From Candidatus Magasanikiibacteriota bacterium (GTDB lineage: Bacteria; Patescibacteriota; Patescibacteriia; Magasanikbacterales; GWA2-37-8), in the NCBI GenBank assembly GCA_041678665.1, contig JBAYNU010000005.1:1-63560 (forward strand): DNA of 63,560 nt. Reading direction: 5' to 3'. This document shows, in pieces, positions 29,273-53,079 of the stretch. The stretch's first letter is position 1. The number at the start of each line of letters is the position of its first letter. The notes under the pieces are model-generated. The model saw nothing but the letters and a program-made list of their open reading frames with translations, had not been told where the DNA came from and searched no databases. The translations under genes were made by a program, and so were the position numbers.

Positions 29273-29740
29273 TTATGTTAAAAATTTTACCGATCTTTCC
29301 CACAACTCCTTATGCGCTTCGATAATATTCTTGGGCATTTTTTTAAAAAATTTTCCATGAATCGGCTTCATCATTGTCTTACACATAAAAACTAGCGAAA
29401 TCACATGACCACGCTTTCCTTGGCTGCAATCTTCGGCATACAAAAATTTATGGCTAACTAGATTGATACCGAGTTCGTCCCAGGCCACCTTATCTAATCG
29501 CTCCTCAAATCTCTCGCGAAAACGCAAAAGTCCGCCCGGGAAATGCCAACCATGCCACCACTTATCCTGTCGCCATTCCATCAAAATCTCATTTTTTTCA
29601 CTTACGACAACCAATTCACACGCCACAAACGGAACCACACCACACAATGCATCAAAAACCGATTGTGGTAGGCCCTCGTGTGGCTTGTCTATCTTCTTGA
29701 GTAAAGACACTAGCTGTTTTAATTCTTTTTTGTTAAGCAT
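29273..29740 (-). CDS. Nudix hydrolase with a degenerate Nudix box (GDP-mannose mannosyl hydrolase-like)
   Basis: GGLLRFRERFEERLDKVAWDELGI. The box lacks the canonical REUxEE, as in Gmm/WcaH-type enzymes. Confidence 0.65.
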   Translation of the reverse strand: MLNKKELKQLVSLLKKIDKPHEGLPQSVFDALCGVVPFVACELVVVSEKNEILMEWRQDKWWHGWHFPGGLLRFRERFEERLDKVAWDELGINLVSHKFLYAEDCSQGKRGHVISLVFMCKTMMKPIHGKFFKKMPKNIIEAHKELWERSVKFLT

Positions 29741-31439: not shown

Positions 31440-32063
31440 TTATTTTTTTAGATCTTCCAATAATTTACCGGCCACACCTACATAACTCGGCTCGGTGGTA
31501 TCAATTCGTTGCACGGTGGAAAAATCAATCTCTTTAAACATATTTTTTGCCCACTGAAATTTTTCCATAGAATTTATATTTGACTGGGTATGTTCGCGCT
31601 TGCGCTGTTCAATCCTATTTTCAATCTCATCGTCTGGGGCAGTCAATAAAAACGACCGTGTAGGTATTGTGCCGCTTTCCATGCTATCAAACAAAACTTT
31701 TAATGGTTTTTTGAATTCGTCGCGAGAAAATGTCCCGGTCAAAATAACCGGCATGCCTTTTGACACCATTTCCTTCGCCGTTTCACAAATCGCGCTATAG
31801 GACTTGATCATTACCTCTAATTCATCCTTTGCCTTAAGAGATGCCATATCAGCACTACGACCATCCTCCTTTTCAATTTTTCTTCTAAACTCATCAACAT
31901 CGAGTACTTGCAAATTTGACTTCTTGGCCAACTCATACGCCAAAGTTGTCTTACCGGTTAGTGGTGGTCCGGTAAAAACAATAATACACGGTTTATATTC
32001 TATTTTATAGCCGGCTTCCATCGCCTCAATTTTACTCCCGTCTTCAATAGACATAAAGCTCAA
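31440..32063 (-). CDS. P-loop kinase-like protein
   Basis: Walker A GPPLTGKTT. 207 aa. ATGA-type overlap with the upstream HAD gene. Confidence 0.55.
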   Translation of the reverse strand: MSFMSIEDGSKIEAMEAGYKIEYKPCIIVFTGPPLTGKTTLAYELAKKSNLQVLDVDEFRRKIEKEDGRSADMASLKAKDELEVMIKSYSAICETAKEMVSKGMPVILTGTFSRDEFKKPLKVLFDSMESGTIPTRSFLLTAPDDEIENRIEQRKREHTQSNINSMEKFQWAKNMFKEIDFSTVQRIDTTEPSYVGVAGKLLEDLKK

Positions 32064-32998
32064 CTTAATAAATAATTAATAGCGACATAAACATTACTTA
32101 CTGGGGACATATCTTGATTGCACAAAATATATGGGCTACCCGACAATTCATTCTCTTGATTAACAAAATTTTGATCGTTGGTAAAACTATAAGGAAAACT
32201 TAATAGGCCGGCATCATTCCCATTTGGCATATCTCCAAAGGTGGCTACCTGATTTAATTCCAAATTTAATGTTTTAAGTATGGTTTTTATCGCCACCATT
32301 TTACTATCCTCGTGGAGGGCTTTAGTAATGTGCGCAAAATGCGTATCACCGGCGGAGACTTGATAGCTTTTGCCCAAACCAACGCGCACGGCAGTAATTA
32401 TCTCTTGATGCACTGATTGGTCGGCGGGTAAAACAAAAGTAAATTTAGCTTCTTCGGTAAAAATTTGGCCACCAAATGGCAGACACAACTGATAAATATC
32501 CTTGGGAATCAATCCTTCCCAATCATCTTTTAAAAATTTACGGAAAGTATCTAAACCTTTTTCCGACAATAGTCCGGTATTAATATTAAATTGGTCATAG
32601 ACTTTTTGCCACACATCAATGGCATGGCTGATTTTGTCAACCGTTAATCCGTGACTATAAATTTTTTTTAATTCATTGTTCTTAAATTCATACAAGATGA
32701 TACCATTGCCGCCGCCTATATATATAGGAGTACTGATCTTATTTTTAATAAAAAACTCTTCCAATGGAGGAATAAAAGTTTTTATAGCGGTAGCGGCGCG
32801 AGCGGTAACAAAGGCTACAGATTTGCCTTTTAACAAAATTTGTCCTATTAATGCTACTGCGTCTTTAATTGTATAATCTTTACCATCCGCAATGGTGCCA
32901 TCATAATCCAAACCAAATAATTTAATTAATGGCTTGGCCTCAACCAACTTGCTGTCGCTTATTTGTTTACGATGCAATAATAAACCTTCTTCAGTCAT
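32060..32998 (-). CDS. HAD-superfamily (IIB/Cof-like) phosphatase
   Basis: Motif I GLDYDGTIA, distal FGDMPNGND. Confidence 0.65.
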   Translation of the reverse strand: MTEEGLLLHRKQISDSKLVEAKPLIKLFGLDYDGTIADGKDYTIKDAVALIGQILLKGKSVAFVTARAATAIKTFIPPLEEFFIKNKISTPIYIGGGNGIILYEFKNNELKKIYSHGLTVDKISHAIDVWQKVYDQFNINTGLLSEKGLDTFRKFLKDDWEGLIPKDIYQLCLPFGGQIFTEEAKFTFVLPADQSVHQEIITAVRVGLGKSYQVSAGDTHFAHITKALHEDSKMVAIKTILKTLNLELNQVATFGDMPNGNDAGLLSFPYSFTNDQNFVNQENELSGSPYILCNQDMSPVSNVYVAINYLLS

Positions 32999-33002: not shown

Positions 33003-34538
33003 TTATATCACCCAGTAAGTAAGTATGGTTTTACGATTCGGATTGTTAATAATGTCCTGATCTTCATAAAAAGAATCGTTTTTGTAATGCGTGGTGGAAA
33101 TTTCTTCAAAAACGCAACCGCCGTTAGATTCAAAATCGTGATTACAACCCCTTTCAATAGTAAGTATATCCCCTGGCCCACAAGTCTGTTTGTTGCTGCC
33201 AACACCAAAAGTGACGTCACCCCAAAGAACATGAAAAGTTTCTTCTTTTAATTTGTGAGTATGGGTAGGATGTTTTTGACCCGGCAACATAACAATCAAT
33301 TTTTTACAGTATTCACGATTAAAGCAACTTACGATACTAGCTCCGATATCATGAAATTTATCTAATCCGTAATGATGAGAAAGTTCAAAATCCCACTTGT
33401 TAGAAATTGGAACACCGGCTTTCTTTAAAATTTCGTTAACCTTTTTAAGAACCTCGTATACCTTTTCTCTTACCTCTAATATACTCAATTCGGACGCCAT
33501 GATGGGATCATTTTTCTTAAAATCCTTTTGAGCGGTCAAAACCGTATATTTTGACATATCATTAGCCAGTATCTGACCATCTTTATTGGGGAAAGCAAAA
33601 AAAGTATTGGTAACATCAATTCTCTCCCCCGCTTTTATATCTCTACCCGCGAATACTCCTCTTTGAAATTGTCTAATATCTGCCGACTCGGCCGAATTAA
33701 ATTCATGGCGCCTACCGACAACTCCACAAATTTTATAAGCTTGTCGAGCTGCCTCCAGCCAATTTCGTAATTGGTCGGGGGTAGCGGAGTAGGCATTAAT
33801 CGGATATTGCTCTGTTTTAATACTTACGTGTTTTTCTAAAATACCAGCCCCTTTGGCTACGGCCAATTTAACTGCCTCGAAATTATCCGGACGCTCATGA
33901 GTAGAGAATCCAATGGTTATCTCGGGGTACCGATCGCGTAATAACGTAATTTGATTAAATTGTAGCTGGCCATCTTCTGTGGGATATTGGCCGACACAAT
34001 GCATAACAGCGAACTGTTTGTTGCGATGACTAAAAAAATTAACCACTTTGTCGATATTCTCTATCTTCACCCCTCCGGTAGACGCGATGATAGGCTTGTC
34101 GCAAGAAACTATTTTCTCCAAGAGCGGCCAATCAGTAAAAGAAGCGCTGGCAATTTTTATAATATCGTAGTTGTGCTTAACAATTTTTTCCACTGATGCT
34201 TCGTCGAACGGGGTACAAATAGAAATAAAACCCAATTTCTCTACTTCATTTTTTAAAGTTAAAAACTCTTCTTCTTTTAATCGAGTTTCGGAAAAACGCT
34301 TTATGTATTTAAGATCCATTCGATCTTTATAATCAGGGTGGATAAAAGTATCTAGATCCCGATATTGAAACTTAAAAGCAAAATTAAAATCAAAATCCTT
34401 ACTAACGGAATGGACATCGCGAATAATTTTAAGCCCATGATTCACATCGCCCATGTGGTTATTGGCCATTTCAAAAATAAAAAGCGGCTTAGCGTCGCCA
34501 GCTTGGCGTTGACTAAAAATTTGGCTGATATTTTTCAT
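33003..34538 (-). CDS. NeuB-family (sialic/nonulosonic acid synthase-like) enzyme with a SAF domain and a C-terminal cupin domain
   Basis: FEMANNHMGD, TPFDEASV, IASTGG and GFSTHE align with NeuB landmarks. SAF-like IKAGERI. C-terminal HTHKLKEETFHVLWGD..GD.. cupin signature. Confidence 0.78.
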   Translation of the reverse strand: MKNISQIFSQRQAGDAKPLFIFEMANNHMGDVNHGLKIIRDVHSVSKDFDFNFAFKFQYRDLDTFIHPDYKDRMDLKYIKRFSETRLKEEEFLTLKNEVEKLGFISICTPFDEASVEKIVKHNYDIIKIASASFTDWPLLEKIVSCDKPIIASTGGVKIENIDKVVNFFSHRNKQFAVMHCVGQYPTEDGQLQFNQITLLRDRYPEITIGFSTHERPDNFEAVKLAVAKGAGILEKHVSIKTEQYPINAYSATPDQLRNWLEAARQAYKICGVVGRRHEFNSAESADIRQFQRGVFAGRDIKAGERIDVTNTFFAFPNKDGQILANDMSKYTVLTAQKDFKKNDPIMASELSILEVREKVYEVLKKVNEILKKAGVPISNKWDFELSHHYGLDKFHDIGASIVSCFNREYCKKLIVMLPGQKHPTHTHKLKEETFHVLWGDVTFGVGSNKQTCGPGDILTIERGCNHDFESNGGCVFEEISTTHYKNDSFYEDQDIINNPNRKTILTYWVI

Positions 34539-34549: not shown

Positions 34550-35599
34550 CTATTTTAAAAAACTCTGAATTGTTCTATAAAAACCGTCGCGTACGCTCAA
34601 CTTGCACCGATAACCCAGCTCTTCAATTTTGGCGGTTGATAACATCGGGCGGATATTATTTTTATTCTCGAGATAATTATCGTCTTGCCCGCGACCCTCA
34701 TAAATAACTTTCAATTTTTTTTCTGGAAACAAAGAGATCAGCAACTCAGCCAAATTACCGACAGACATCTGACCGGCACTATTACCCACATGATAACTTT
34801 CGCCGGATTTACCTTTCAATAATGCCCTAAAGAAGCCATCGGTGGCATCGCTAATATAGCAAAAAGTCCGAACCGGCCGGCCATCGCTTTTTACTTTGAT
34901 ATCTCGATTGTTCACTACATCCGAAACAAATTCAGAGAACACTCTCTTGTCATTATTCAAATCAAGAGTGGGGCCATAGGTATGCTCGGGTCTGACCACT
35001 ATTGTCGGCACTTGATATTGATGATGCCAACACTTGCACATATTCTCGCCCATGCGCTTACTTTCACCATAACAATTTCTAATATCGGTGGGATCCAAAT
35101 AACCACCTTCGGATTCGGTTATCACTTTTTTATCGGCCGTGCCGCTAACTTCTCCGCTGCTAAAAAATAAAAAACCATTGGACTGCTTCTCTCTGGCTAG
35201 CTCCAATAAATTCCTGGTGCCAAAAACATTGGGCAAGATTACCCCCACCGGATCAATGCCATAAAATTGGGGACTAGCTGGACTGGCGGCATGAATAATA
35301 TAGTGAATGTCTTCCGAAATGTTAATTTTGTTGAGAATATTCTCGTCGGAAATTTGCAGTAGAGGTGAATTTAAAAAATCACTAAATCTCGCCCGAGCTT
35401 TGTCAAGATTACGACAGAGGGCAATGATTTTTATATTTAAATGCGGATTTTTTTCGTTTAGATAAGCCAGGGTATACACCATGTAAGACGCCAACATACC
35501 ATTGGCTCCGGAAATCAAAACAGTGCGGTCTTTAAACCTTTCCCAGTCTAAATCGCTATTGCAAATTGATTCTAAATCATCTCTAATGATTTCGTTCAT
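34550..35599 (-). CDS. SDR nucleotide-sugar epimerase/dehydratase
   Basis: ISGANGMLASYM, YGESKRMGE. Start set to MNEIIRDD (35599), giving a 4-nt overlap with the upstream gene. Confidence 0.75.
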   Translation of the reverse strand: MNEIIRDDLESICNSDLDWERFKDRTVLISGANGMLASYMVYTLAYLNEKNPHLNIKIIALCRNLDKARARFSDFLNSPLLQISDENILNKINISEDIHYIIHAASPASPQFYGIDPVGVILPNVFGTRNLLELAREKQSNGFLFFSSGEVSGTADKKVITESEGGYLDPTDIRNCYGESKRMGENMCKCWHHQYQVPTIVVRPEHTYGPTLDLNNDKRVFSEFVSDVVNNRDIKVKSDGRPVRTFCYISDATDGFFRALLKGKSGESYHVGNSAGQMSVGNLAELLISLFPEKKLKVIYEGRGQDDNYLENKNNIRPMLSTAKIEELGYRCKLSVRDGFYRTIQSFLK

Positions 35600-36591
35600 A
35601 ATATTGATTTTCCAAAATCTAAATCTGGCGACTGATTGGCTTGATGAATACACTGACTAAGAATAAACCCCGACTCGTCCTTGATCGCATCCATGGAACT
35701 ATACACTGGCTTATAACCGAACTTAAATGATTTATTATTGCGGGAGTAATAATTATTTTTGACACCGGTGGGACTAGCGTGATTAGCGGCCCAACCGATC
35801 TCATATTTAAGTCCGTACTCTGACGCAAAATAATTTATTATTTCTCTCTTTTCCACTGGTTTGGAGCTACTCACGTCAAACGCACTATTGATCCTTTTGG
35901 CCGCGATACATTGACAAATCATGGAATAAAGGTCCTGGGGATGAATAAAATCACGAACAATATTTACATTATCAGTGATGAGTATTTTATTATTCAATAT
36001 TGAATTCATCACATCGGTAATAAAATAACTATCACCCATGCTGGAATAACGACTGAAATATGAAAATATCCTAAGATCTACAATATTCAAATGATTAAAC
36101 GAGCGGTGCTTGGTCTCGGAATTAAGTCTAGCGATGGTATAATATTCTTCGCTCTTAATATGGTTCACCGGGATGATATTCTTGGTATCTTCTTCCGCGG
36201 GAGCCAAGAATTCCCCGCCATATACGACTCCACTACTAAAACTAATGTAGATAGCATTGGGACAAATATTGCACAAATACTTTATGACCATATTGTCATA
36301 TTCTTCGGTAACCGTAAGATAAAGAGTGTAATCACCTTGTAGCTTATTCCTAGTCCCGACCCCGATGCAATTAATTATAACATCATACGGGTTGTTTCCA
36401 AATTCCTGGTATCCCACATTAATAGTACGCGGTTGGTTGGGACAATGTAAGGCGTCAAAAAAAATTTTCAATTTTTCCGGTGATCTGGTATAAAGATGCA
36501 ACTCCACCTTACTATCTAACAAAAAATTACTTATCAGTCCTCTGGCAATATTTGAAGTGGCACCTAAAATGGCAATTTTTAAATTCCCCAT
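35596..36591 (-). CDS. NAD(P)-binding Rossmann protein (atypical SDR)
   Basis: IAILGATSNIARGL. 331 aa. Confidence 0.55.
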   Translation of the reverse strand: MGNLKIAILGATSNIARGLISNFLLDSKVELHLYTRSPEKLKIFFDALHCPNQPRTINVGYQEFGNNPYDVIINCIGVGTRNKLQGDYTLYLTVTEEYDNMVIKYLCNICPNAIYISFSSGVVYGGEFLAPAEEDTKNIIPVNHIKSEEYYTIARLNSETKHRSFNHLNIVDLRIFSYFSRYSSMGDSYFITDVMNSILNNKILITDNVNIVRDFIHPQDLYSMICQCIAAKRINSAFDVSSSKPVEKREIINYFASEYGLKYEIGWAANHASPTGVKNNYYSRNNKSFKFGYKPVYSSMDAIKDESGFILSQCIHQANQSPDLDFGKSIL

Positions 36592-36600: not shown

Positions 36601-37761
36601 TCAATATATTTTTATTACTTCATTTTTTAATTTTAAAATTTCCGTAATCTGACGAGCAACCTCATCTTGATAAGAATAAGTTGAAATCAAAATTGGCACA
36701 TCTTCTTTGATATCTTGGGGTGATTTAATTTCCACTCCGTTTATTTTTTTACCCCAATATCTGGCGTTGGAATCAACAAAATACAATACTTTTGAGAGAT
36801 CCAACCCCGAACCGACCAACATCTGAGTGTGAGTGCCTACCCCCCAAATAATCATTTTGTTTTTATCTAATAATTTTTTACGAATCACGTCCTTCAGCTT
36901 CAGATCCAACTTAGAAGATAAAGAAATATAACTTTTCAGTTTTTCTTCACAAGTGTTGTCTTTAACCAATTTATAATCAATTTTTTCCGATTTCCTCGAC
37001 AAAACGAAGATGTCAGGATCGACCATTTGGTTTACAGTATTTTCATCTTTTTTAATCTCAATTATATTAAAAGCAAATTTTGATAATAAATTTTTAATAG
37101 AATCACATGAAAAATAGTTTACATGCTCGATACTAAACTGCTGGAAGGGAACAAAAATATAGCCATCAAACCTAGTAGCGTCCGGAATCTCAACAAATAA
37201 TAGTCCGTCGTCTTTTAATAATGTCCTTATTTTCCCCATGGCGGTAGTAAAATCTACCAAATGTTCCAAAACTGCCGACAAAATAATCAGATCAAACTTG
37301 TTTTTATCATTAAAATTATAAATATTTTTAGATACAGCTTCGATATTATATAGTTTCTTTACCGTTTCTACACATCTGGCTGATGGATCTACCCCCAAAA
37401 GATTGTTAAAACCATTTTCTTTAAATTTGGACAAAAGACACCCGGTCGAACAACCAATATCCAAAATTCTGGCGTTTTTATCCTTTAAATGAGGGGTTAA
37501 AAAATTAACAATTTTCTTAAAATAATTTTCGTAGTCGTCTGAAACCGCCCCACCACTATAATTAAATTCCCATTTTGACATCACCGCATAATAATTATTA
37601 AATTCGTCTTGAGATGGTATATTGTCAGCATAAGCCATGCCACAGCTATCACAAATCACCACATCATAATTCTCCATCAAAGCAATGGTTTTGTTGCCGA
37701 AGTTCTGTTGATAGAGAAACTTCTTATTGGCACCAGAACAAACTGGACATGCTCGATTCAT
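36601..37761 (-). CDS. Zn-ribbon + class I SAM methyltransferase, NDP-hexose C-methyltransferase-like (TylCIII-type architecture)
   Basis: CPVCSG...CDSCGM zinc ribbon, ILDIGCSTG motif I, and an extra C-terminal domain. Confidence 0.65.
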   Translation of the reverse strand: MNRACPVCSGANKKFLYQQNFGNKTIALMENYDVVICDSCGMAYADNIPSQDEFNNYYAVMSKWEFNYSGGAVSDDYENYFKKIVNFLTPHLKDKNARILDIGCSTGCLLSKFKENGFNNLLGVDPSARCVETVKKLYNIEAVSKNIYNFNDKNKFDLIILSAVLEHLVDFTTAMGKIRTLLKDDGLLFVEIPDATRFDGYIFVPFQQFSIEHVNYFSCDSIKNLLSKFAFNIIEIKKDENTVNQMVDPDIFVLSRKSEKIDYKLVKDNTCEEKLKSYISLSSKLDLKLKDVIRKKLLDKNKMIIWGVGTHTQMLVGSGLDLSKVLYFVDSNARYWGKKINGVEIKSPQDIKEDVPILISTYSYQDEVARQITEILKLKNEVIKIY

Positions 37762-37771
37762 ACGCGAAAAA

Positions 37772-38788
37772 TTATTTATAGAACTTTTTTAACCTACTAG
37801 CATCTGCACCAAGATCATCTTCCGGAAATAAACGATACTTCATAATATTGCAATCAACGCAGGTTTGGCAGGTATTTTTAATGCCGTCAAGCATTTTACA
37901 TCTAAAATTTTGGAATTCTTTACCCTGCCAAATCTCGTTGATGGATTGACGGTTACAATCCCCCATGATGCCGGGGTATTCAAAGGAAAAACACGGCACC
38001 ACTTTTCCATCCGGATTGATTTGCATGGTGAAAAAGGGCTGAGGACAAATCTTGAAATCCTTCACAGGCAACCCAAATTGGGTAACAGCTGCACCACTCT
38101 CCTTGATTATATTTTTATAATCTATACCCGTATGAATAGGCACGGTATGCTCAACGGCTATCGTATCGCAAATATCCCCAAAAATTTCATAAAATTTCTT
38201 TTCGTCTTCCTTGCCGTCCAACGCACTATCCACAATTTTAAAATATACATGAGTATTGCCTTTGTGGTTAAAAAAATATTGTAAATTTTCAATAAATTTA
38301 TCAAAATCTATGTCTGCCCCGCATATTTTTTTATACTTTTCTCGACTGGTACCTTGTAACGATACAACCAGTCTATTAAGGCCGGCCGATATCAAGGAAT
38401 CAGACATTTGTGGGGTCAACAATGCCGCATTAGTCAAAATTTCGACGGTATTGGCGACATTTTTTGACACCGCATAGGCAATCATTGCGGCAATATTTTT
38501 ATGCAACAACGGCTCGCCAATTCCCACAAAACGCAGGACCTTAATCTTATTGGGAAACTTAGTCATGTCGTCTATGTATTTTTTGTATAGATCAAAATCC
38601 ATCACAACCTTATCGGAAATAAAACCGCGCTTAGATGGGTCTACTGAAAAAATACAATAACAACACTTAAACACGCAGGCATAAACCGGAAATATCTGTA
38701 CCACAAAGGGCGTGTCCAAGGGCAACACCTCTGCCAACTTCGTGCGTTTGCCTCCCGGCGCTTGCCCGCTGATATCTTTAGCTTTCAT
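37772..38788 (-). CDS. Radical SAM enzyme with a Cys-rich SPASM-like C-terminal domain
   Basis: CVFKCCYC (CX3CX2C). C-terminal CPQPF..PC..GDC...C..C.TC.DC. Confidence 0.85.
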   Translation of the reverse strand: MKAKDISGQAPGGKRTKLAEVLPLDTPFVVQIFPVYACVFKCCYCIFSVDPSKRGFISDKVVMDFDLYKKYIDDMTKFPNKIKVLRFVGIGEPLLHKNIAAMIAYAVSKNVANTVEILTNAALLTPQMSDSLISAGLNRLVVSLQGTSREKYKKICGADIDFDKFIENLQYFFNHKGNTHVYFKIVDSALDGKEDEKKFYEIFGDICDTIAVEHTVPIHTGIDYKNIIKESGAAVTQFGLPVKDFKICPQPFFTMQINPDGKVVPCFSFEYPGIMGDCNRQSINEIWQGKEFQNFRCKMLDGIKNTCQTCVDCNIMKYRLFPEDDLGADASRLKKFYK

Positions 38789-38809
38789 ATGGATAATTGG
38801 AAAAAAACT

Positions 38810-39511
38810 TTAAGTCCATTTAAGATCTTTAATATCAACATTAAAATATTTTTGAGTAAAACAGGCACCTTGGTTATCTTTGATATTTAATTTGCCGGTT
38901 GAATCCGTGAAAACGATAGAATTTTCCGGGATGTCCGCCTTAAATACGACCGAATTTATACCAATTGACGAATAATCCCCTATCTTACCGCTTCCAATAA
39001 TGCTAGAACCGGCCGCCAGAAATACCCCCTTGCCGATCGTGGGCGGCTTCCAGGTACCATCATCGTCCCCGGTATTAACCGTAACATTTTGGAATACTAC
39101 TAAAAAATTTGAGTAAATCGCATTGCCGATGATAGTACCGATCGCGTGAGAAAAAAGAAAAATATCCGGCATTTTACATTTATAGGAAATAAATATGGAA
39201 TTTAGCGTTTTATTGAGTAAGAGTAATTTATCACATAGTGGTTTATTCTGTGATTCCAGCCATAGACTATTGGCCAAAAAATACAAAAAGGAACAATACT
39301 GATCGGCATGTAAGTGATAAAAACAAGTATTATTTTGCTCGTTATAATACCGCAAGCTAATATGCTTAAAACAATACTCCGTCCTCTGTAGAGCCGTATC
39401 AAACGCCCGGTCTATATCCGCACCGACGAATTTATACTTATCGGGGAAAAAATTATCAAGCTGTCCGGAAATATATTGTTTTAATTCGGAATGGGACAAT
39501 GATAAATTCAT
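38810..39511 (-). CDS. Left-handed beta-helix (hexapeptide) acyl/acetyltransferase
   Basis: C-terminal hexapeptide-like repeats IGKGVFLAAGSSIIGSGKIGDYSSIGINSVV, with a serine-acetyltransferase-like N-terminal part. Confidence 0.68.
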   Translation of the reverse strand: MNLSLSHSELKQYISGQLDNFFPDKYKFVGADIDRAFDTALQRTEYCFKHISLRYYNEQNNTCFYHLHADQYCSFLYFLANSLWLESQNKPLCDKLLLLNKTLNSIFISYKCKMPDIFLFSHAIGTIIGNAIYSNFLVVFQNVTVNTGDDDGTWKPPTIGKGVFLAAGSSIIGSGKIGDYSSIGINSVVFKADIPENSIVFTDSTGKLNIKDNQGACFTQKYFNVDIKDLKWT

Positions 39512-39535
39512 GTTCTTGAATTAATTGGTTATCGC

Positions 39536-40633
39536 CTACGAAAACAATCTCTTGTCTTTATAAAACGGTTTTTGAGTTTTATCTTCGTGGGTAAATACTT
39601 CCGAGCAAGGAACGGGCAGGGGCTTGTCATAAATCCTTCCAGCCACATATTTTTCAATAAAATGTCGATCTTCCGCTATCGAACAAGTATCAACATATTC
39701 ACCAAAATACTTAATGTCAAAGCCTCTTTTTATAATATCTTTAAGTGGCTCTTTGAATACATTGCCAATGGAAGTATGAATGTAAGGACAGGGAAGCACA
39801 TCTCCATATTGCGTGACGGAAAACATTCCCTTCACCGCGATACAACCCATATTAATTCCGTAAGCCGAGGTCAAATGGGTAAAAACTTTATATTTCTTTT
39901 CTAATTTTTCCATATACGCCATATCCTTTCTGTCAATCAAACAATCAAAATTTCCCTCCCATGCTCCGACTGGCTTGGCATAGCTCACAAAAACGCCAAT
40001 GCCTTTATTGGTAAAATATTCCAGATACTTAATAAATTCGTCCGAATAAAGTCTCTCTTTCCAAACTACCGTCTGCATAAAAATATCCATCCCAATCTCC
40101 TGGGCAATATCCACGGCCTTCAGCACTCGGGCATGCGATCCGGGAGACCTTCTAAACGCATCGTGCTCTTTAGCATTTAAACTATCCAGACTAACCTGCA
40201 CTCTATCCACACCAATGTCTTGCAAATGTCTCATCCTTTTTTCGTCCAGTAGCCAGCCGTTAGAATCGCTGTTGATATAAAATTTCTGCGGGTCAATAGC
40301 CGCCACTAATTCGTCAAAATCCTTAAATACCATCGGTTCGCCGCCGGTAATAGTCACCCGCGCTAATCCCAACTCATCAGCTTGTTTAAATAAATTTTTA
40401 ACATCAGGGATAGTGAATTGACGGGTTTTGTTGGGGCCTTGAAACCGTTTAACCGAGCAGTGGACACATCGAAAGTTACAGGTGTAATTATATTGAAACT
40501 GAATAATAGCGATGCTTTCACCCCTTCTAATCTTTTCATCAAACTTGGCAATCTTTTCAAAAACATAGGGCTTCCTCTCTTTAAGCCGATTACGATTGGT
40601 GGCCTCGACCGATTTTAATTTTTGATCTGACAT
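39536..40633 (-). CDS. Radical SAM enzyme with a SPASM/twitch-like C-terminal Cys cluster
   Basis: CNFRCVHC (CX3CX2C), ITGGEP, C-terminal GCIA...LPCPY...C. Confidence 0.85.
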   Translation of the reverse strand: MSDQKLKSVEATNRNRLKERKPYVFEKIAKFDEKIRRGESIAIIQFQYNYTCNFRCVHCSVKRFQGPNKTRQFTIPDVKNLFKQADELGLARVTITGGEPMVFKDFDELVAAIDPQKFYINSDSNGWLLDEKRMRHLQDIGVDRVQVSLDSLNAKEHDAFRRSPGSHARVLKAVDIAQEIGMDIFMQTVVWKERLYSDEFIKYLEYFTNKGIGVFVSYAKPVGAWEGNFDCLIDRKDMAYMEKLEKKYKVFTHLTSAYGINMGCIAVKGMFSVTQYGDVLPCPYIHTSIGNVFKEPLKDIIKRGFDIKYFGEYVDTCSIAEDRHFIEKYVAGRIYDKPLPVPCSEVFTHEDKTQKPFYKDKRLFS

Positions 40634-40658: not shown

Positions 40659-41624
40659 CTAAAAATATTTCTCATACCACTGATAGGTTTCTTTAGTGGC
40701 TTGCGTAAAATCCGTGCTCGGTCGCCAGCCCAAAACGTTCTTGGACTTATTAAAATTCAAGCTCTGTTTGGGTATTTCGTTTTTTTGTATGTTCAACACT
40801 GTATATTTTAATTTTTTATTTAAAATTTTCTCCATCTCTGCGATCAAACCCAATACCGATAGATTTATTCCCGAGCTAAAATTAAACGCTTGGCCTTTGG
40901 TCTTGTCTATATTCTCCGCCAAACTAATATAACCGTCAACCACATCTTTTACATAGACATAATCACGCTCAAATGATCCATCACTGCGAATTTCTAAAAG
41001 CTCATCTTTAATGATCGCCTTCATCGCCCCCGGAATAATACGATTAAAATTTAAGTCCCCCGGACCGTAAATATTACCAAAACGACTAACAGTAATCGGC
41101 AAACCATAGGTATTATGATAAGCCATGGCAATTAGGTCGGTAGCGGATTTGGAGGCATCATACGGATGATCACCGGCCAAGGCGTGCTCTTCGGTGGCGT
41201 TGACACAGTCCTTGCCATAGGCCTTATCGCTTGAGGCCACCACTACCGCTTGGATTAACGGCGACAAACGAGCGGCTTCCAAAATATTGACCGTACCCAT
41301 CACATTGGTGGCAATCGCTTCATAGGGATTAATAAGGGCAGTATGAACGATGGCCTGCGCGCCAATATGAAAAATATGGCTGATTTCGTACTTGGTAATA
41401 ATATTAAATATTCTTTCTTTATCATTCAAATCGCCAAAAACAGACACCACCTTTTTATCTGAATTATTAAGATAAAAATATGATTGGGGATCATGGCTGC
41501 GAACCAAACAAACAATTTTGGCTGGGTTCACCGCAAATAATTTTTCCACTAAGTGCGAGCCCACTAATCCGGTGCCGCCGGTGACAAAAATATTTTTATT
41601 GGTTAATTTTGACATATTACGCAT
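40659..41624 (-). CDS. SDR NDP-hexose 4,6-dehydratase-like enzyme
   Basis: VTGGTGLVGSHL, SSDKAYG, YDASKSATD. It lies immediately downstream of rfbF. Confidence 0.72.
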   Translation of the reverse strand: MRNMSKLTNKNIFVTGGTGLVGSHLVEKLFAVNPAKIVCLVRSHDPQSYFYLNNSDKKVVSVFGDLNDKERIFNIITKYEISHIFHIGAQAIVHTALINPYEAIATNVMGTVNILEAARLSPLIQAVVVASSDKAYGKDCVNATEEHALAGDHPYDASKSATDLIAMAYHNTYGLPITVSRFGNIYGPGDLNFNRIIPGAMKAIIKDELLEIRSDGSFERDYVYVKDVVDGYISLAENIDKTKGQAFNFSSGINLSVLGLIAEMEKILNKKLKYTVLNIQKNEIPKQSLNFNKSKNVLGWRPSTDFTQATKETYQWYEKYF

Positions 41625-41626: not shown

Positions 41627-42421
41627 TTAGTTAGACCAAACTTTCCAAAATGGATCTTTTTGCCAATGCTCATTCATTTCTTCCACTTCTTTATAAGTAT
41701 CCATACATTTCCAATTACCGGGATGTTTGTAAACCGATAGTTCGCCCTTTTCCGCAAACGGAGCAAACAGGCCCTCAATCATGCTATTTTCCGGGATCAT
41801 ATCCAAGACCTCTTTTTTGAACACCATAAAACCGCCATTGATGTGATCTTTGCCGTGCTCACTGGTATCATCGTGAGTAACTTTGTGCTGACTAAATTCC
41901 TTTAGGCGGTTGGTTTCGTGATCAATGTTAAGCATGCCAAAACGGCTGGTCGGCTTAACCGCTGTAATGGTGGCCAAAGTGTTCTGATTTTTATGAAAAT
42001 TAACCAGTTCGGCGATATCGATATCACCGACGCCATCGCCATAAGTTACCATAAAATGGTCGTCGTCTTTAATATAACCTTTAAGTCGTCTAACTCTTTC
42101 TCCGGTTAAGCTGTCTGATCCGGTTTCGGCAAAAGTAATTTTAAAATCATCACATTCATTATTATGAAAGATCATTTCATTAGTTTTGGTATGCAGAGTA
42201 AAATCATTTAAAAAATGACGCCAGCCAACAAAATAATCTTTGATCATGTTACCTTTATAACCCAAAGCAAGAACAAAATCATTAAAACCAAAGTGAGAAT
42301 ATATCTTCATAATATGCCAAAGAATTGGCTTATTGCCCACCTCCACCAATGGCTTGGGTTTAAACTCAGTTTCTTCTTTCATGCGTGTACCAGTGCCCCC
42401 GCAAAGAATAATAGTTTTCAT
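41627..42421 (-). CDS. rfbF: Glucose-1-phosphate cytidylyltransferase
   Basis: MKTIILCGGTGTRMKEETEFKPKPLVEVGNKPILWHIMKIY is canonical RfbF. Start set to that Met (42421). Confidence 0.88.
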   Translation of the reverse strand: MKTIILCGGTGTRMKEETEFKPKPLVEVGNKPILWHIMKIYSHFGFNDFVLALGYKGNMIKDYFVGWRHFLNDFTLHTKTNEMIFHNNECDDFKITFAETGSDSLTGERVRRLKGYIKDDDHFMVTYGDGVGDIDIAELVNFHKNQNTLATITAVKPTSRFGMLNIDHETNRLKEFSQHKVTHDDTSEHGKDHINGGFMVFKKEVLDMIPENSMIEGLFAPFAEKGELSVYKHPGNWKCMDTYKEVEEMNEHWQKDPFWKVWSN

Positions 42422-42446
42422 ATTTATTATAAAATCTCTTTTAAGA

Positions 42447-43892
42447 TTAAAAAAGACTGTTAAATTTAACAATGAAAGGATTGAAAAAAAAGGTCAAATC
42501 TTCTTTCTTTAATAACCGTAACCAAAATAACAGACCAACATTAATTAAACAAAGAGCGAAACCAATAAAATAGTTATTTGACTGTCCTATATATTTTAAT
42601 ATTAATAATAACAACGCATTAAACACGCCCAAAAATACCATGCGATAAATGATAGACCAATTTTTCTCCCATTGAGCATAGCGTTGCAATAAAAACAGGT
42701 TGGCTACTTCCGCTATGACCGTAGCCCATGCCGCACCATATAACGAATATCTAGGAATAAGAATAAAATTTAGTCCAATATTGAAAATTGCGCCAAAAAT
42801 TATAATATACAAACTGCGATGCTCCCGGTGCTGGATCACCAGCAAACTATTAAATAACATGCTAATCGAACCAATAATCTGCGCTAAAATTAAAATCCTT
42901 ATCGCCAAAACACTGGGCATAAATGAATCGGGAAAGAGCCAACTTACCAATAGCGGCGTAAAAAAAATAAATCCGAGAGTAATCATTAAACTAAAAGAAA
43001 ATAATAAACGAGTGGCTTTATAAAAAAAACTAATAAATTTAACGCGCGACCCCGAGTCATTCCATAGTGATGACAAAATTGGGAAAATTGATGGCATAAA
43101 TAAAACGGCCGGAAAAATAGCGGCTACTTCTAAAAATTTATAAGCCGTTCCATACCAACCTACGACGGAAAAATTATCTAAATAACGCAGCATTACAATA
43201 TCTATCCGATTGTATAAACTAATAAAGAGGGTGATAAACAAAAATGGCATCCCTTTTTTGATCATTGATAAGATGTTGTGAATGTTAAAAATTAATTTAA
43301 ACTTAAAAGGCAATACTCTGTAAAAATAATAAGCTAAAGAAACTAACTGGCTTAACAATAGAGCTACAAACACCGTCTCCACGTGCGGATAAAAAAATAA
43401 TCCTACCGAGCCAATTATAATTACCACCATTTTTTCAATCAGCTGGCGAAGCGACGGGTATTTAAATAAATTGGCCGATTGAAAGTAAGTATCGGCCAAA
43501 TTAATATAAGTGGCAAAAAAAGTAGAAACGAACGCAATTATTAATGGCAACAAAATATTAAAATTGGAAAAAAAATTAACCAAAAAGAACGGAATAAAAA
43601 TAATAACCACGGTTATTAGCCGCAAAGTAAAAAGCGCAAAAAAGTCTCCTTCTACCTGATCAAATGTTTTGGGGCTCTTCGCCCACTCACGATACAGATG
43701 GCTACCTGCACCAAAATCAAGAAAAATAAACCACATTCCCACGAACGATGAAATAAAATTATACTGCCCCATACCAATGTCTCCTAAAATATGCGACATG
43801 AGGACAAAAAAAGCCAATCCCAAAATTCGCAAGAAAAATTGAGAAAAGGTGGACCAAGCAAAATTTGTACCAGCTTGTAATTCGTGATCCAT
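42447..43892 (-). CDS. wzx: Wzx-type (MOP superfamily) polysaccharide flippase
   Basis: 481 aa with about 12-14 hydrophobic helices and typical polysaccharide-biosynthesis-protein layout. Confidence 0.72.
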   Translation of the reverse strand: MDHELQAGTNFAWSTFSQFFLRILGLAFFVLMSHILGDIGMGQYNFISSFVGMWFIFLDFGAGSHLYREWAKSPKTFDQVEGDFFALFTLRLITVVIIFIPFFLVNFFSNFNILLPLIIAFVSTFFATYINLADTYFQSANLFKYPSLRQLIEKMVVIIIGSVGLFFYPHVETVFVALLLSQLVSLAYYFYRVLPFKFKLIFNIHNILSMIKKGMPFLFITLFISLYNRIDIVMLRYLDNFSVVGWYGTAYKFLEVAAIFPAVLFMPSIFPILSSLWNDSGSRVKFISFFYKATRLLFSFSLMITLGFIFFTPLLVSWLFPDSFMPSVLAIRILILAQIIGSISMLFNSLLVIQHREHRSLYIIIFGAIFNIGLNFILIPRYSLYGAAWATVIAEVANLFLLQRYAQWEKNWSIIYRMVFLGVFNALLLLILKYIGQSNNYFIGFALCLINVGLLFWLRLLKKEDLTFFFNPFIVKFNSLF

Positions 43893-44155: not shown

Positions 44156-44181
44156 AGTTAGCCAAAATAATAACACTCCCT

Positions 44182-52447: not shown

Positions 52448-52489
52448 AACTTTTTAAAAATTAAAATACTTAATACCAAATACTAGATA

Positions 52490-53008: not shown

Positions 53009-53044
53009 ATTAGAAATGTTTTATTAAAATAAATTGTTGTGATA

Positions 53045-53079
53045 GATCCTTCGATTCGCTTCGCTCACTCAGGATGACA
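53045..53079. repeat. REP/MITE-like element (GATCCTTCG...CTCAGGATGACA)
   Basis: gatccttcgattcgcttcgctcactcaggatgaca. Confidence 0.85.

What the first reader, a model, noticed from the sequence alone, without database searches (positions are those of the whole stretch)
36601..40633. Two radical SAM/SPASM enzymes flanking an acetyltransferase, next to a sugar C-methyltransferase, inside a nucleotide-sugar operon
The two ORFs 37772-38788 (CVFKCCYC) and 39536-40633 (CNFRCVHC) are distinct and dissimilar radical SAM proteins. Both have Cys-rich SPASM/twitch-like C-termini. They bracket a hexapeptide acyltransferase and sit between a TylCIII-type Zn-ribbon C-methyltransferase and the dehydratase/rfbF pair.

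SPASM enzymes are best known for peptide maturation. Here the intergenic gaps (10-25 nt) leave no room for a precursor peptide, and every neighbour is a sugar enzyme. Known sugar-acting radical SAM enzymes (DesII, BtrN, AprD4) show that such chemistry exists. I do not recognise this four-gene module as a described pathway. It may perform radical dehydrogenation, epimerisation, deoxygenation or C-C chemistry on a CDP- or GDP-sugar.
Basis: partly seen in the sequence, partly recalled or inferred. Interest (0 to 1): 0.72.

Follow-up and report, generated by a model that had tools for sequence, protein, structure and literature searches.

The report
Radical SAM pair in branched-sugar operon
Two unrelated iron-sulfur "radical SAM" enzymes sit in a large cell-surface sugar operon and are the best-conserved parts of a widespread, uncharacterised gene cassette that most likely builds an unusual long-branched deoxy-sugar.

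Summary
ORFs 37772-38788 (rSAM-A) and 39536-40633 (rSAM-B) are genuine radical SAM proteins that are dissimilar to each other. Both carry C-terminal auxiliary-cluster domains and sit in a minus-strand sugar operon with 10-25 nt gaps.

The acetyltransferase is a rare accessory and the methyltransferase an optional one.

The conserved unit is a roughly 10-gene cassette:
- RfbF, RfbG and RfbH (E1);
- a NeuB-SAF-cupin fusion;
- a YerE/JanthE-like ThDP carboligase;
- a Gmm-like NUDIX, a HAD and SDRs;
- rSAM-B, plus rSAM-A in anaerobes.

Of 36 loci with at least 6 kb on both sides of rSAM-A, 35 carry rSAM-B, 34 NeuB-cupin and 33 the ThDP enzyme. The hosts are Patescibacteria, Omnitrophota, Kiritimatiellota, archaeal MAGs and cultured Geobacter sp. 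SVR. Chromobacterium violaceum and Azoarcus KH32C have rSAM-B only.

The best reading is a variant of the published acyl-branched 3,6-dideoxyhexose pathway (yersiniose, erwiniose, caryophyllose). A PEP-dependent NeuB replaces the pyruvate aldolase, and two radical tailoring steps are added.
- rSAM-A has a four-Cys twitch cluster like BtrN.
- rSAM-B has a three-Cys open-site cluster like MoaA.

Their exact reactions and the sugar product remain unknown. No description was found in the searchable literature.

The parts
41627..42472 (-). RfbF-like glucose-1-phosphate cytidylyltransferase; makes the CDP-hexose
   Evidence: TIGR02623 276.6 bits against a cut-off of 300.25, and Pfam NTP_transferase. 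Orthologues sit in 20 of 36 well-flanked loci.
40659..41624 (-). RfbG-like SDR, a probable CDP-glucose 4,6-dehydratase
   Evidence: Best NCBIfam hit is TIGR02622 at 186.9 bits against a cut-off of 278. Pfam GDP_Man_Dehyd and Epimerase also match.
39536..40633 (-). rSAM-B: radical SAM enzyme with a three-Cys auxiliary cluster; the most constant and slowest-evolving cassette member
   Evidence: - SAM cluster C52/C56/C59, a GGEP motif, and C264/C282/C317 universal in 57 of 57 sequences. C343 is variable.
- The nearest PDB sequence and fold is MoaA (3.2e-19; Foldseek 2.8e-12), then BlsE.
- It is found in 35 of 36 loci.
- 44% orthologues occur in C. violaceum and Azoarcus.
38810..39511 (-). Serine acetyltransferase/EpsC-like beta-helix acyltransferase; a rare accessory specific to this variant
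   Evidence: NCBIfam EpsC 5.6e-17 and PDB serine acetyltransferases 2.4e-11. A homologue occurs in only one other locus, L049. It sits in the slot where about 40 other loci carry a B12-binding radical SAM gene.
37772..38788 (-). rSAM-A: radical SAM enzyme with a four-Cys twitch-type auxiliary cluster
   Evidence: - SAM cluster C38/C42/C45; C248/C266/C310/C313 universal in 88 of 88; C207 in 82 of 88; C278 in 70 of 88.
- Nearest PDB sequences are BtrN (4.4e-13, twitch region) and DesII. The top Foldseek hits are DesII and BtrN.
36601..37761 (-). Zn-ribbon / class-I methyltransferase / C-terminal Rossmann-like domain protein; an optional tailoring enzyme
   Evidence: Methyltransf_23 at 89.5 bits. 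Weak matches to the sugar 3-C-methyltransferases TcaB9 and KijD1 at about 1e-6. Present in 13 of 36 loci, always next to rSAM-A.
35596..36591 (-). SDR1, a divergent extended SDR; candidate ketoreductase partner
   Evidence: Pfam Epimerase 3e-08. Orthologues directly follow rSAM-A in 22 of 36 loci.
34550..35653 (-). SDR2, an extended SDR; candidate ketoreductase. The real start is probably the internal ATG near 35599.
   Evidence: Pfam Epimerase 1.3e-35. Orthologues at 64-72% identity follow the methyltransferase in 6 of 36 loci.
33003..34538 (-). NeuB-SAF-cupin fusion: a PEP-dependent 3-deoxy-2-ulosonic acid synthase fused to a lyxose/mannose-type isomerase-like cupin
   Evidence: - Pfam NeuB 148 bits and Cupin_2.
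- The NeuB part matches PDB 3G8R (C. violaceum) at 2.3e-113. The cupin matches D-lyxose/D-mannose isomerases at 1e-05.
- Present in 34 of 36 loci.
32060..32998 (-). Cof-type HAD-IIB phosphatase
   Evidence: Hydrolase_3 and the Cof subfamily match. In other loci the HAD slot beside NeuB and the ThDP enzyme is filled by several HAD types that do not match one another by sequence search.
31440..32063 (-). P-loop kinase-like protein (AAA_33); accessory
   Evidence: Pfam AAA_33 8.5e-13. A homologue occurs in only one other locus.
29746..31428 (-). YerE/JanthE-like ThDP-dependent carboligase
   Evidence: The best PDB hits are JanthE 8RPH (348.8 bits) and PpYerE 5AHK (241.5 bits), ahead of true acetolactate synthases at 221 bits or less. 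It has a GDG ThDP motif. Present in 33 of 36 loci.
29273..29740 (-). NUDIX hydrolase, weakly like GDP-mannose mannosyl hydrolase
   Evidence: Pfam NUDIX 6e-05. Its best NCBIfam hit is Gmm at 4.9e-05, and the L002 orthologue scores 4.9e-12. Present in 30 of 36 loci.
27949..29268 (-). RfbH/E1, CDP-6-deoxy-4-hexulose 3-dehydrase
   Evidence: NF011936 scores 691.5 bits against a cut-off of 423. His replaces the PLP lysine (PAHHITMGEGG), and a C-x-C-x7-C motif is present.

Best explanation
The two genes encode two unrelated radical SAM enzymes that carry auxiliary clusters. They tailor a CDP-linked sugar. They are not a self-contained four-gene module. They are the signature pair of a conserved cassette that I read as a new variant of the acyl-branched 3,6-dideoxyhexose pathway (the yersiniose, erwiniose and caryophyllose type).

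Shown by sequence:
- RfbF, RfbG and a true E1/RfbH are present. By established knowledge these make CDP-4-keto-3,6-dideoxy-D-glucose.
- A ThDP enzyme is closest to the ketone-accepting carboligases JanthE and PpYerE.
- A NeuB-SAF-cupin fusion, a HAD phosphatase, a Gmm-like NUDIX and several SDRs are present.

Inferred pathway:
1. The cupin supplies a manno-configured aldose, possibly as the 6-phosphate.
2. NeuB condenses it with PEP to a 3-deoxy-2-ulosonic (alpha-keto) acid. This takes the place of the pyruvate aldolase in the published scheme.
3. HAD removes the phosphate.
4. The ThDP enzyme decarboxylates the acid and adds the acyl anion to C-4 of the CDP-ketosugar.
5. An SDR reduces the new ketone. 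The product stays CDP-activated, which fits the absence of any CMP-ulosonate synthetase gene.

Inferred roles of the radical enzymes (weakest step):
- rSAM-B always travels with NeuB and the ThDP enzyme. Its auxiliary [4Fe-4S] cluster has only three conserved Cys. I propose it binds the keto-acid or polyol side chain, or the nucleotide, on the open iron, as MoaA and TYW1 bind their substrates. It would then start an H-abstraction-driven dehydration (deoxygenation) or C-C bond formation.
- rSAM-A has a fully ligated four-Cys twitch cluster like BtrN. Its wider family also occurs with RfbF/G/H in the absence of NeuB and the ThDP enzyme. I propose it abstracts a carbinol hydrogen on the CDP-dideoxyhexose core and oxidises it to a ketone. 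The adjacent methyltransferase and/or SDR then process that ketone, giving net C-methylation or epimerisation.
For: Not peptide maturases:
- Gaps are 10-25 nt.
- All neighbourhoods are sugar genes.
- All RiPP and cofactor NCBIfam models score far below their cut-offs.

Cassette:
- In 36 loci with at least 6 kb on both sides of an rSAM-A orthologue: rSAM-B 35, NeuB-cupin 34, ThDP 33, NUDIX 30, RfbH 22, RfbF 20, RfbG 19, SDR1 or SDR2 28, MT 13, acetyltransferase 1.
- The two rSAMs are the slowest-evolving members. Mean identity is 70.3% and 69.1%, against 57.4% for NeuB and 53.9% for ThDP, in the 37 loci that hold all four.

Acceptor branch: RfbH scores 691.5 bits against a 423 cut-off and shows the E1 His and Cys signatures.

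ThDP enzyme:
- JanthE 348.8 bits, PpYerE 241.5 bits, acetolactate synthases 221 bits or less.
- 8RPH is confirmed as JanthE, whose physiological substrate is still unknown.
- The C. violaceum cassette enzyme also hits JanthE best, at 415 bits.

Published scheme: aldolase-made alpha-keto acid plus CDP-4-keto-3,6-dideoxyglucose, joined by a YerE-like enzyme, then reduction (PMC9306805; PMC12247030).

NeuB-cupin: 3G8R at 2.3e-113 and lyxose/mannose isomerase at 1e-05.

A HAD slot is filled by several HAD types that do not match one another.

No CMP-ulosonate synthetase gene appears in the window or in the annotated cassettes.

rSAM-A:
- Four universal auxiliary Cys.
- BtrN 4.4e-13, then DesII. 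The top Foldseek hits are DesII and BtrN.
- Always adjacent to the MT and/or an SDR.
- Four tandem paralogues sit with RfbF/G/H and flagellin, without NeuB, ThDP or rSAM-B, in L010.
- A duplicated rSAM-A'/MT' pair occurs in L015.

rSAM-B:
- Three universal auxiliary Cys, with the fourth position variable.
- MoaA is the top hit by sequence and by fold.
- It is retained with NeuB and the ThDP enzyme where rSAM-A is absent, in C. violaceum and Azoarcus.
Against: - No enzyme of the cassette has been assayed, and no glycan structure is known from any host.
- The specific radical reactions rest on analogy at about 20% identity.
- The structure models are weak: pLDDT 62 and 74, TM-scores 0.45-0.6.
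- The published acyl-branched clusters use class-II pyruvate aldolases and contain no NeuB or radical SAM genes.
- No E3 (RfbI) reductase gene accompanies E1 in any cassette, so formation of the 3-deoxy acceptor is assumed rather than shown.
- RfbF and RfbG score slightly below their equivalog cut-offs.
- The NUDIX and HAD genes fit equally well with release of a free sugar for NeuB. That is the classic nonulosonic-acid logic.
- rSAM-A keeps two further, mostly conserved cysteines (C207, C278). One could act as an H-atom donor, as in radical SAM epimerases.
- One in-silico survey of YerE-like clusters (Krug et al. 2024, Angew e202403535) could not be read and may already list this cluster type.
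Confidence: 0.5

Rival explanations
1. The cassette makes a new nonulosonic-type acid. A CDP-(di)deoxyhexose is tailored by the two rSAMs and the SDRs. The Gmm-like NUDIX (with HAD) releases it as a free sugar, the cupin isomerises it, and NeuB condenses it with PEP. The ThDP enzyme then remodels the keto-acid end or adds a side chain. The rSAMs act early, on the CDP-sugar.
For: - NeuB-family synthases normally take free 6-deoxy-hexoses released from NDP-sugars (established knowledge of the Pse and Leg pathways).
- The NUDIX's best family hit is GDP-mannose mannosyl hydrolase, which frees the sugar.
- HAD phosphatases are nearly always present.
- The NUDIX gene sits directly upstream of rSAM-A in most loci.
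Against: - No CMP-ulosonate synthetase (CTP_transf_3) is present in the window or in any annotated cassette, so the product could not be activated.
- The ThDP enzyme groups with the ketone-accepting YerE and JanthE enzymes.
- E1/RfbH supplies exactly their known acceptor.
Confidence: 0.2
2. The rSAMs are anaerobic replacements for missing conventional steps of 3,6-dideoxyhexose synthesis. Examples are a DesII- or AprD4-like radical deoxygenation, or a substitute for the absent E3 reductase or for NAD-dependent epimerases. Their link to NeuB and the ThDP enzyme would then be secondary.
For: - No E3 gene accompanies E1 in any cassette.
- rSAM-A paralogues occur with RfbF/G/H alone in a Clostridiaceae flagellin island.
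- DesII is the top fold match of rSAM-A.
- rSAM-A is missing from the facultative aerobes C. violaceum and Azoarcus, where an unrelated 262-265 aa protein follows rSAM-B.
Against: - E1 can take electrons from general reductases (established knowledge).
- rSAM-B co-occurs with NeuB and the ThDP enzyme in 35 of 36 loci, and also in aerobic hosts.
- Both proteins keep full SAM-cluster and GGEP motifs, so they are catalysts rather than plain electron carriers.
Confidence: 0.15
3. They are SPASM-type maturases of a ribosomal peptide or a protein-derived cofactor encoded elsewhere, and they sit in a sugar operon by chance.
For: Pfam SPASM hits, and weak similarity to PqqE, SkfB, SuiB, anSME and mycofactocin maturases.
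Against: - All such family models score 5-10 fold below their cut-offs.
- No neighbouring locus shows a precursor or transporter.
- The sugar context is conserved in about 90 loci across phyla.
- Neither protein keeps the seven-Cys SPASM pattern.
Confidence: 0.02

Closest known systems
BtrN (butirosin 2-deoxy-scyllo-inosamine dehydrogenase), the founding twitch radical SAM enzyme
   Same: It is the best PDB sequence match of rSAM-A (4.4e-13, in the C-terminal auxiliary domain). Both have one auxiliary [4Fe-4S] cluster with four Cys placed before and after a beta-hairpin plus a CxxC pair. Both act in a carbohydrate context.
   Different: Identity is only about 18%. rSAM-A is about 90 residues longer, with a conserved Gly/Arg-rich N-terminus. 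It sits in a CDP-sugar operon rather than an aminoglycoside cluster. It has two extra, mostly conserved Cys (C207, C278). Its activity is untested.
DesII (TDP-4-amino-4,6-dideoxyglucose deaminase/dehydrogenase)
   Same: It acts on an NDP-6-deoxyhexose. It is the top Foldseek hit of rSAM-A (1.6e-11) and a weak sequence hit (4e-05).
   Different: TIGR04426 scores 32.9 bits against a cut-off of 450. No DesI-type aminotransferase is present, because the DegT-family gene here is E1/RfbH. The TM-score is about 0.47.
MoaA (GTP 3',8-cyclase)
   Same: It is the best sequence match (3.2e-19) and fold match (2.8e-12) of rSAM-B. Both have an auxiliary cluster with three Cys and an open iron, which in MoaA binds the nucleotide substrate. 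Both have a basic N-terminal segment.
   Different: TIGR02666 scores 100 bits against a cut-off of 284. The genomic context contains no molybdopterin genes. Identity is about 20%.
BlsE (cytosylglucuronate decarboxylase) and AprD4/AprD3 (radical diol dehydratase plus reductase)
   Same: Both are radical SAM enzymes that remodel sugar carbons. BlsE is the second-best PDB sequence hit of rSAM-B (2.5e-13). The pairing of an rSAM with an adjacent SDR mirrors AprD4/AprD3 deoxygenation. The AprD4/AprD3 comparison comes from my own knowledge and was not tested here.
   Different: TIGR04466 scores 59 and 34 bits against a cut-off of 400. The substrates and clusters differ. No AprD4 sequence or structure was available for comparison.
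Acyl-branched sugar pathways (yersiniose YerE/YerF, erwiniose ErwE/F/I/J, caryophyllose MMAR_2331-2333, JanthE)
   Same: The route to the CDP-4-keto-3,6-dideoxyglucose acceptor is the same (RfbF/G/H). A YerE/JanthE-like ThDP enzyme and SDR reductases are present. Optional SAM methyltransferases occur too, as in the R. palustris cluster.
   Different: The alpha-keto acid maker is a PEP-dependent NeuB-cupin fusion with a HAD phosphatase, not a class-II pyruvate aldolase. One or two radical SAM enzymes are obligatory, often with a B12-radical SAM as well. No E3 gene is present. The hosts are mainly anaerobes, CPR bacteria and archaeal MAGs.

Membership tests
Radical SAM superfamily (both proteins) | CX3CX2C cluster motif, a GGEP-type SAM-binding motif, and Pfam PF04055 above its gathering score | tested here: met
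   The three motif Cys are conserved in 88 of 88 (rSAM-A) and 57 of 57 (rSAM-B) sequences. PF04055 scores 62.6 and 92 bits against a cut-off of 29.5. The motifs GIGEP and GGEP are invariant.
SPASM domain (two auxiliary clusters) | Seven-Cys pattern CX9-15GX4C ... CX2CX5CX3C ... C that ligates two [4Fe-4S] clusters | tested here: not met
   PF13186 matches (54.1 and 26.4 bits). However, only four auxiliary Cys are universal in rSAM-A and only three in rSAM-B.
Twitch subclass (BtrN-like, one auxiliary cluster) | A truncated SPASM domain with a single auxiliary [4Fe-4S]: Cys before and after a beta-hairpin, plus a downstream CxxC pair | tested here: met
   rSAM-A has C248-x12-G-x4-C266 and C310-x2-C313, all universal. 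BtrN matches this region at 4.4e-13. rSAM-B has the hairpin pair C264/C282 plus C317 only, which gives a three-Cys variant.
BtrN / DesII / BlsE / MoaA equivalogs | Score above the curated NCBIfam equivalog cut-off | tested here: not met
   Scores against cut-offs: DesII 32.9 vs 450; BlsE 33.7 and 59.2 vs 400; MoaA 60.6 and 100.4 vs 284. No BtrN model was among the reported hits.
RiPP or cofactor SPASM maturases (PqqE, MftC, sactisynthases, anSME) | Family-level score, plus a neighbouring precursor peptide or target gene | tested here: not met
   All models score far below their cut-offs, for example PqqE 45.5 and 74.4 bits against 381. Gaps are 25 nt or less. The sugar context is conserved in about 90 loci.
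YerE-like ketone-accepting ThDP carboligases (29746-31428) | Closer to characterised YerE and JanthE than to acetolactate synthases, clustered with genes for CDP-4-keto-3,6-dideoxyglucose, and showing ketone-acceptor activity | tested here: inconclusive
   The first two features are met: JanthE 348.8 bits and PpYerE 241.5 bits against 221 or less for acetolactate synthases, and RfbF/G/H lie in the same operon. The activity is not testable with these tools.
E1 / RfbH 3-dehydrase (27949-29268) | Equivalog score, His in place of the PLP lysine, and a Cys motif for the [2Fe-2S] cluster | tested here: met
   NF011936 scores 691.5 bits against 423. The sequence shows PAHHITMGEGG and DCRCKTGHDDTCG.
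TylC3/TcaB9-type sugar C-methyltransferases (36601-37761) | Pfam Methyltransf_13 (Zn domain) and Methyltransf_14 (C-terminal domain) flanking the methyltransferase core | tested here: inconclusive
   Neither Pfam domain is detected in the window protein, even at E up to 1. TcaB9 and KijD1 match only at 3e-06 to 6e-06. The three-domain layout is similar, and the analogous C. violaceum methyltransferase does hit both domains.
NeuB (PEP-dependent ulosonic acid synthases) (33003-34538) | PF03102 above its cut-off plus a SAF domain | tested here: met
   PF03102 scores 148 bits against 22.1, and the SAF domain is weak. 3G8R matches at 2.3e-113 and NeuB/SiaC at 1e-26. The NeuB and PseI equivalog cut-offs are not reached (140 vs 400 bits), so the substrate is not ManNAc or a Pse precursor.

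The most novel reading that the evidence does not exclude
The cassette makes an undescribed higher-carbon sugar of about C13-C14. It would be a CDP-3,6-dideoxyhexose carrying a KDN-like, PEP-derived side chain at C-4. Two new families of sugar-acting radical SAM enzymes would then deoxygenate or cyclise that side chain. One of them would use an open-site auxiliary cluster to bind a keto-acid or polyol. The product would decorate flagellins and cell surfaces of CPR bacteria, archaea and many anaerobes.
Probability: 0.3. Interest if true: 0.85.

Novelty: new variant of a known kind. Interest (0 to 1): 0.68.

Why it matters
Few radical SAM enzymes that act on sugars are known (BtrN, DesII, AprD4, BlsE, NeoN). 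Those named here work in antibiotic pathways.

Here two further families appear, each with more than 1000 sequence clusters. They are 65-82% identical across phyla, and no curated model covers them. They are fixed parts of a cell-surface or flagellin glycan pathway found in candidate-phyla bacteria, archaeal MAGs, many anaerobes and some cultured Betaproteobacteria.

Solving their reactions would:
- add new radical carbohydrate chemistry;
- possibly identify the physiological substrates of JanthE-type ThDP carboligases, which biocatalysis groups still list as unknown;
- reveal a sugar that current glycan catalogues probably lack.

The cassette occurs in cultured organisms (C. violaceum, Azoarcus sp. 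KH32C, Geobacter sp. SVR), so the question is directly testable.

Tried and rejected
- **RiPP or cofactor maturase reading:** rejected on context, scores and Cys census.
- **Four-gene module as the unit:** rejected by co-occurrence counts.
- **Full SPASM assignment:** rejected.
- **Equivalog assignment to DesII, BlsE, MoaA, AhbD or PqqE:** rejected on cut-offs.
- **Structure route:** the AlphaFold2 models came from shallow alignments at 70-80% identity and were mediocre (pLDDT 62 and 74). Foldseek TM-scores of only 0.45-0.6 separate sugar- and nucleotide-acting rSAMs from RiPP maturases weakly. The tool gives no coordinates, so the positions of C207 and C278 relative to the active site could not be measured.
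- **Genome-collection scan with the single protein:** gave only 8 loci. The metagenome scan with an alignment gave 80.
- **Plasmid collection:** no homologue of rSAM-B.
- **Literature:** seven searches combined radical SAM with CDP-glucose, NeuB, YerE, dideoxyhexose names, flagellin glycosylation or branched sugars. None found a description of this cassette. Two relevant Angewandte 2024 papers (JanthE, and the YerE-like cluster survey) are not held, and the Steitz paper's supplement is not held.
- **The 262-265 aa protein that follows rSAM-B in Betaproteobacteria:** no Pfam or NCBIfam match. Whether it replaces rSAM-A is open.
- **E3 replacement by an rSAM:** considered but not favoured.

Full report
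**Observation.** The region lies in a run of minus-strand genes from about 48.6 kb down to about 7 kb.

- rSAM-A (37772-38788, 338 aa) carries CVFKCCYC. It scores above the Pfam gathering thresholds for Radical_SAM (62.6 bits) and SPASM (54.1 bits).
- rSAM-B (39536-40633, 365 aa) carries CNFRCVHC. It scores 92 bits for Radical_SAM and 26.4 bits for a partial SPASM match.
- The two are only 20% identical over 125 residues.
- The ORF between them is a beta-helix acyltransferase of the serine acetyltransferase/EpsC type.
- The downstream ORF is a class-I methyltransferase with an N-terminal zinc ribbon.
- Gaps between these genes are 10-25 nt, so no peptide gene fits between them.

**What surrounds it in the window.** In the direction of transcription the operon reads as follows:

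1. Wzy_C-TPR, Gmd, Fcl, a small HTH_17 gene, Wzx.
2. RfbF-like cytidylyltransferase, RfbG-like 4,6-dehydratase.
3. rSAM-B, acetyltransferase, rSAM-A, methyltransferase.
4. Two SDRs, a NeuB-SAF-cupin fusion, a Cof-type HAD, a P-loop kinase-like protein.
5. A ThDP enzyme, a NUDIX, RfbH, two more SDRs.
6. Many glycosyltransferases and a GDP-heptose gene set.

RfbH is a true E1. It scores 691.5 bits against a cut-off of 423. It has His in place of the PLP lysine and a C-x-C-x7-C motif.

The ThDP enzyme's best PDB matches are JanthE (8RPH, 348.8 bits) and PpYerE (5AHK, 241.5 bits). Both rank ahead of genuine acetolactate synthases. That 8RPH is JanthE, a ketone-accepting YerE-like carboligase whose physiological substrates are still unknown, is stated in PMC12188165.

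The NeuB part matches the structural-genomics entry 3G8R from Chromobacterium violaceum at 2.3e-113. The cupin weakly matches D-lyxose/D-mannose isomerases.

No E3/RfbI-type reductase and no CMP-ulosonate synthetase were found in the window.

**Relatives elsewhere.** Both radical SAM proteins belong to large and very tightly conserved families.

- rSAM-A has 1168 clusters at 90% identity, and rSAM-B has 2539. The best 120 of each are 69-82% identical to the window proteins.
- Source names span Patescibacteria, Omnitrophota, Desantisbacteria, Kiritimatiellota, Ignavibacteria, Nitrospirota, Nanoarchaeota and Bathyarchaeia MAGs, plus the isolate Geobacter sp. SVR.
- At 50% clustering, rSAM-B has only about six representatives above 44% identity. 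Below that is a tail of paralogous families at 27-41%.

I collected about 98 loci and scored the window's proteins against them. In the 36 loci with at least 6 kb on both sides of an rSAM-A orthologue, the counts were:

| Protein | Loci (of 36) |
|---|---|
| rSAM-B | 35 |
| NeuB-cupin | 34 |
| ThDP enzyme | 33 |
| NUDIX | 30 |
| SDR1 or SDR2 | 28 |
| RfbH | 22 |
| RfbF | 20 |
| RfbG | 19 |
| Methyltransferase | 13 |
| Acetyltransferase | 1 |

The counts for RfbH, RfbF and RfbG are limited by flank length.

- About 40 loci carry a roughly 550-aa B12-binding radical SAM gene between rSAM-B and rSAM-A, where the window has the acetyltransferase.
- In the 37 loci with all four core proteins, the radical SAM enzymes are the slowest-evolving. 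Mean identities are 70.3% and 69.1%, against 57.4% for NeuB and 53.9% for the ThDP enzyme.
- A HAD phosphatase slot next to NeuB and the ThDP enzyme is filled by several HAD types that do not match one another.
- The NUDIX's best family match is GDP-mannose mannosyl hydrolase.

**Informative variants.**

- C. violaceum (L097) and Azoarcus sp. KH32C (L098, beside a flagellin gene) carry RfbF, RfbG, RfbH, NeuB-cupin, ThDP, a TylC3-type methyltransferase, NUDIX, an SDR and a 44%-identical rSAM-B orthologue. They have no rSAM-A. A 262-265 aa protein with no family match follows rSAM-B, and then comes a giant glycosyltransferase.
- A Clostridiaceae MAG (L010) has four tandem rSAM-A paralogues (37-53% identity) in a flagellin glycosylation island. 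That island holds RfbF, an RfbG-like gene, RfbH and an RmlC-like epimerase, but no NeuB, ThDP enzyme or rSAM-B.
- A contig (L015) carrying the rSAM-B that NCBI names Bathyarchaeia has a second rSAM-A'/methyltransferase' pair.

Taken together, rSAM-B tracks the NeuB/ThDP branch, and the rSAM-A family tracks the CDP-dideoxyhexose core.

**Cluster anatomy.** A census of 87 rSAM-A and 56 rSAM-B unique full-length sequences gave the following.

- rSAM-A: C38, C42 and C45 plus C248, C266, C310 and C313 are universal. C207 is Cys in 82 of 88 and C278 in 70 of 88. C43, C297 and C307 are not conserved. This is a four-Cys twitch arrangement as in BtrN, which is its best PDB sequence match (4.4e-13).
- rSAM-B: C52, C56 and C59 plus C264, C282 and C317 are universal. 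C343 is Cys in only 32 of 57 sequences and otherwise Trp or Tyr. This is a three-Cys auxiliary cluster with a free or non-Cys site, as in MoaA, which is its best sequence and fold match.

The structure models are of modest quality. Foldseek TM-scores are 0.45-0.6, so the fold ranking is supportive only (DesII, BtrN, MoaA, BlsE for rSAM-A; MoaA, SuiB, SkfB, viperin for rSAM-B).

**Interpretation.** Steitz et al. (PMC9306805) showed that long acyl-branched sugars (erwiniose, caryophyllose, gastriose) arise when a YerE-like ThDP enzyme adds the decarboxylated form of an aldolase-made alpha-keto acid to CDP-4-keto-3,6-dideoxyglucose. An SDR then reduces the product. A later review states that more than 200 YerE-like clusters have been predicted, most with unknown products (PMC12247030).

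The cassette here has the acceptor branch (RfbF/G/H), a JanthE/YerE-like enzyme and SDRs. In place of a pyruvate aldolase it has a PEP-dependent NeuB fused to a sugar-isomerase-like cupin, with a phosphatase. That combination fits synthesis of a KDN-like ulosonic acid as the donor.

Because the product would stay CDP-activated, the lack of a CMP-transferase is explained.

I therefore read the two radical SAM enzymes as tailoring enzymes of this pathway.

- rSAM-A is most likely a BtrN-like carbinol oxidant on the CDP-dideoxyhexose core. Its ketone product would be handled by the adjacent methyltransferase and/or SDR.
- rSAM-B most likely binds the keto-acid or polyol side chain, or the nucleotide, on its open iron. 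It would then start a dehydration or C-C bond-forming step.

These last assignments are inference from analogy and co-occurrence. An epimerase role for rSAM-A, with C207 or C278 as the H donor, cannot be excluded.

**Rivals.**

- A nonulosonic-acid reading (NUDIX and HAD free a tailored deoxyhexose for NeuB) fits NeuB logic. It leaves the product without an activating enzyme and ignores the YerE-like affinity of the ThDP enzyme.
- A reading as anaerobic replacements for conventional dideoxyhexose steps draws on the missing E3 and on the L010 island. It does not explain the near-obligate link of rSAM-B to NeuB and the ThDP enzyme, including in aerobic hosts.
- A peptide-maturase reading is effectively excluded.

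**Novelty.** None of the curated NCBIfam models reaches its cut-off for either protein. Seven full-text searches found no paper that links radical SAM enzymes to CDP-dideoxyhexose or YerE-type clusters. One in-silico survey could not be read.

I class this as a new variant of a known kind: sugar-tailoring radical SAM enzymes inside an acyl-branched sugar pathway. It is of real interest because it is widespread, highly conserved and testable in cultured bacteria.

**Caveats.**

- Orthologue calls use identity and coverage thresholds on tblastn hits.
- Many loci are short metagenome contigs.
- Taxon names are those attached to MAGs by their depositors.
- The window's own organism is not given. 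Gene order and identity point to a Patescibacteria genome (L005, L007 and L019), which is an inference.

Noticed in passing
window 11554-14634 (minus strand): A complete NDP-heptose gene set lies in the same glycan cluster: a SIS isomerase, a GHMP kinase, a HAD phosphatase and a nucleotidyltransferase. The surface polymer probably contains a second unusual sugar.
   Followed up: partly
window 43910-44176 (minus strand): A small HTH_17 (excisionase/MerR-like) gene sits between Fcl and Wzx inside the sugar operon. It is about 81% identical and in the same position in Patescibacteria loci L005 and L007. It may be a cluster-specific regulator.
   Followed up: partly
window 22617-25319 (minus strand): A 900-aa ORF in the middle of the glycosyltransferase block has no Pfam or NCBIfam match at all.
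   Followed up: no
L010 7901-12040: Four tandem paralogues of rSAM-A (37-53% identity) sit in a Clostridiaceae flagellin glycosylation island. The island also holds GT2-TPR proteins, RfbF, an RfbG-like gene, RfbH, an RmlC-like epimerase and flagellin. It has no NeuB, ThDP enzyme or rSAM-B.
   Followed up: partly
L097 16354-17151; L098 19178-19966: A conserved 262-265 aa protein (53% identity between C. violaceum and Azoarcus) has no family match. It immediately follows the rSAM-B orthologue in the two cassettes that lack rSAM-A. It could be a non-homologous replacement for rSAM-A.
   Followed up: partly
L002 7826-9475, L013 11089-12738 and about 40 other loci: A B12-binding radical SAM protein of about 550 aa (56-73% identity in most of these loci) usually sits between rSAM-B and rSAM-A. 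The window lacks it and has the acetyltransferase in that slot.
   Followed up: partly
L098 2806-4401: In Azoarcus sp. KH32C the cassette lies just downstream of a flagellin gene and ends in a 1532-aa multi-glycosyltransferase. This suggests the sugar decorates flagellin there.
   Followed up: no
window 34550-35653 and 35596-36591: The listed GTG start of SDR2 overlaps SDR1 by 58 nt. An internal ATG (MNEIIRDD...) near 35599 would give a typical 4-nt overlap and is the more likely start.
   Followed up: no
window 48599-58521: Two very large ORFs (1282 and 1213 aa) lie in a stretch with higher G+C (0.42-0.47, against about 0.36 in the sugar cluster). They were not examined.
   Followed up: no
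window 2282-2354: A single tRNA-Glu (CTC) is the only RNA gene detected in the window.
   Followed up: yes
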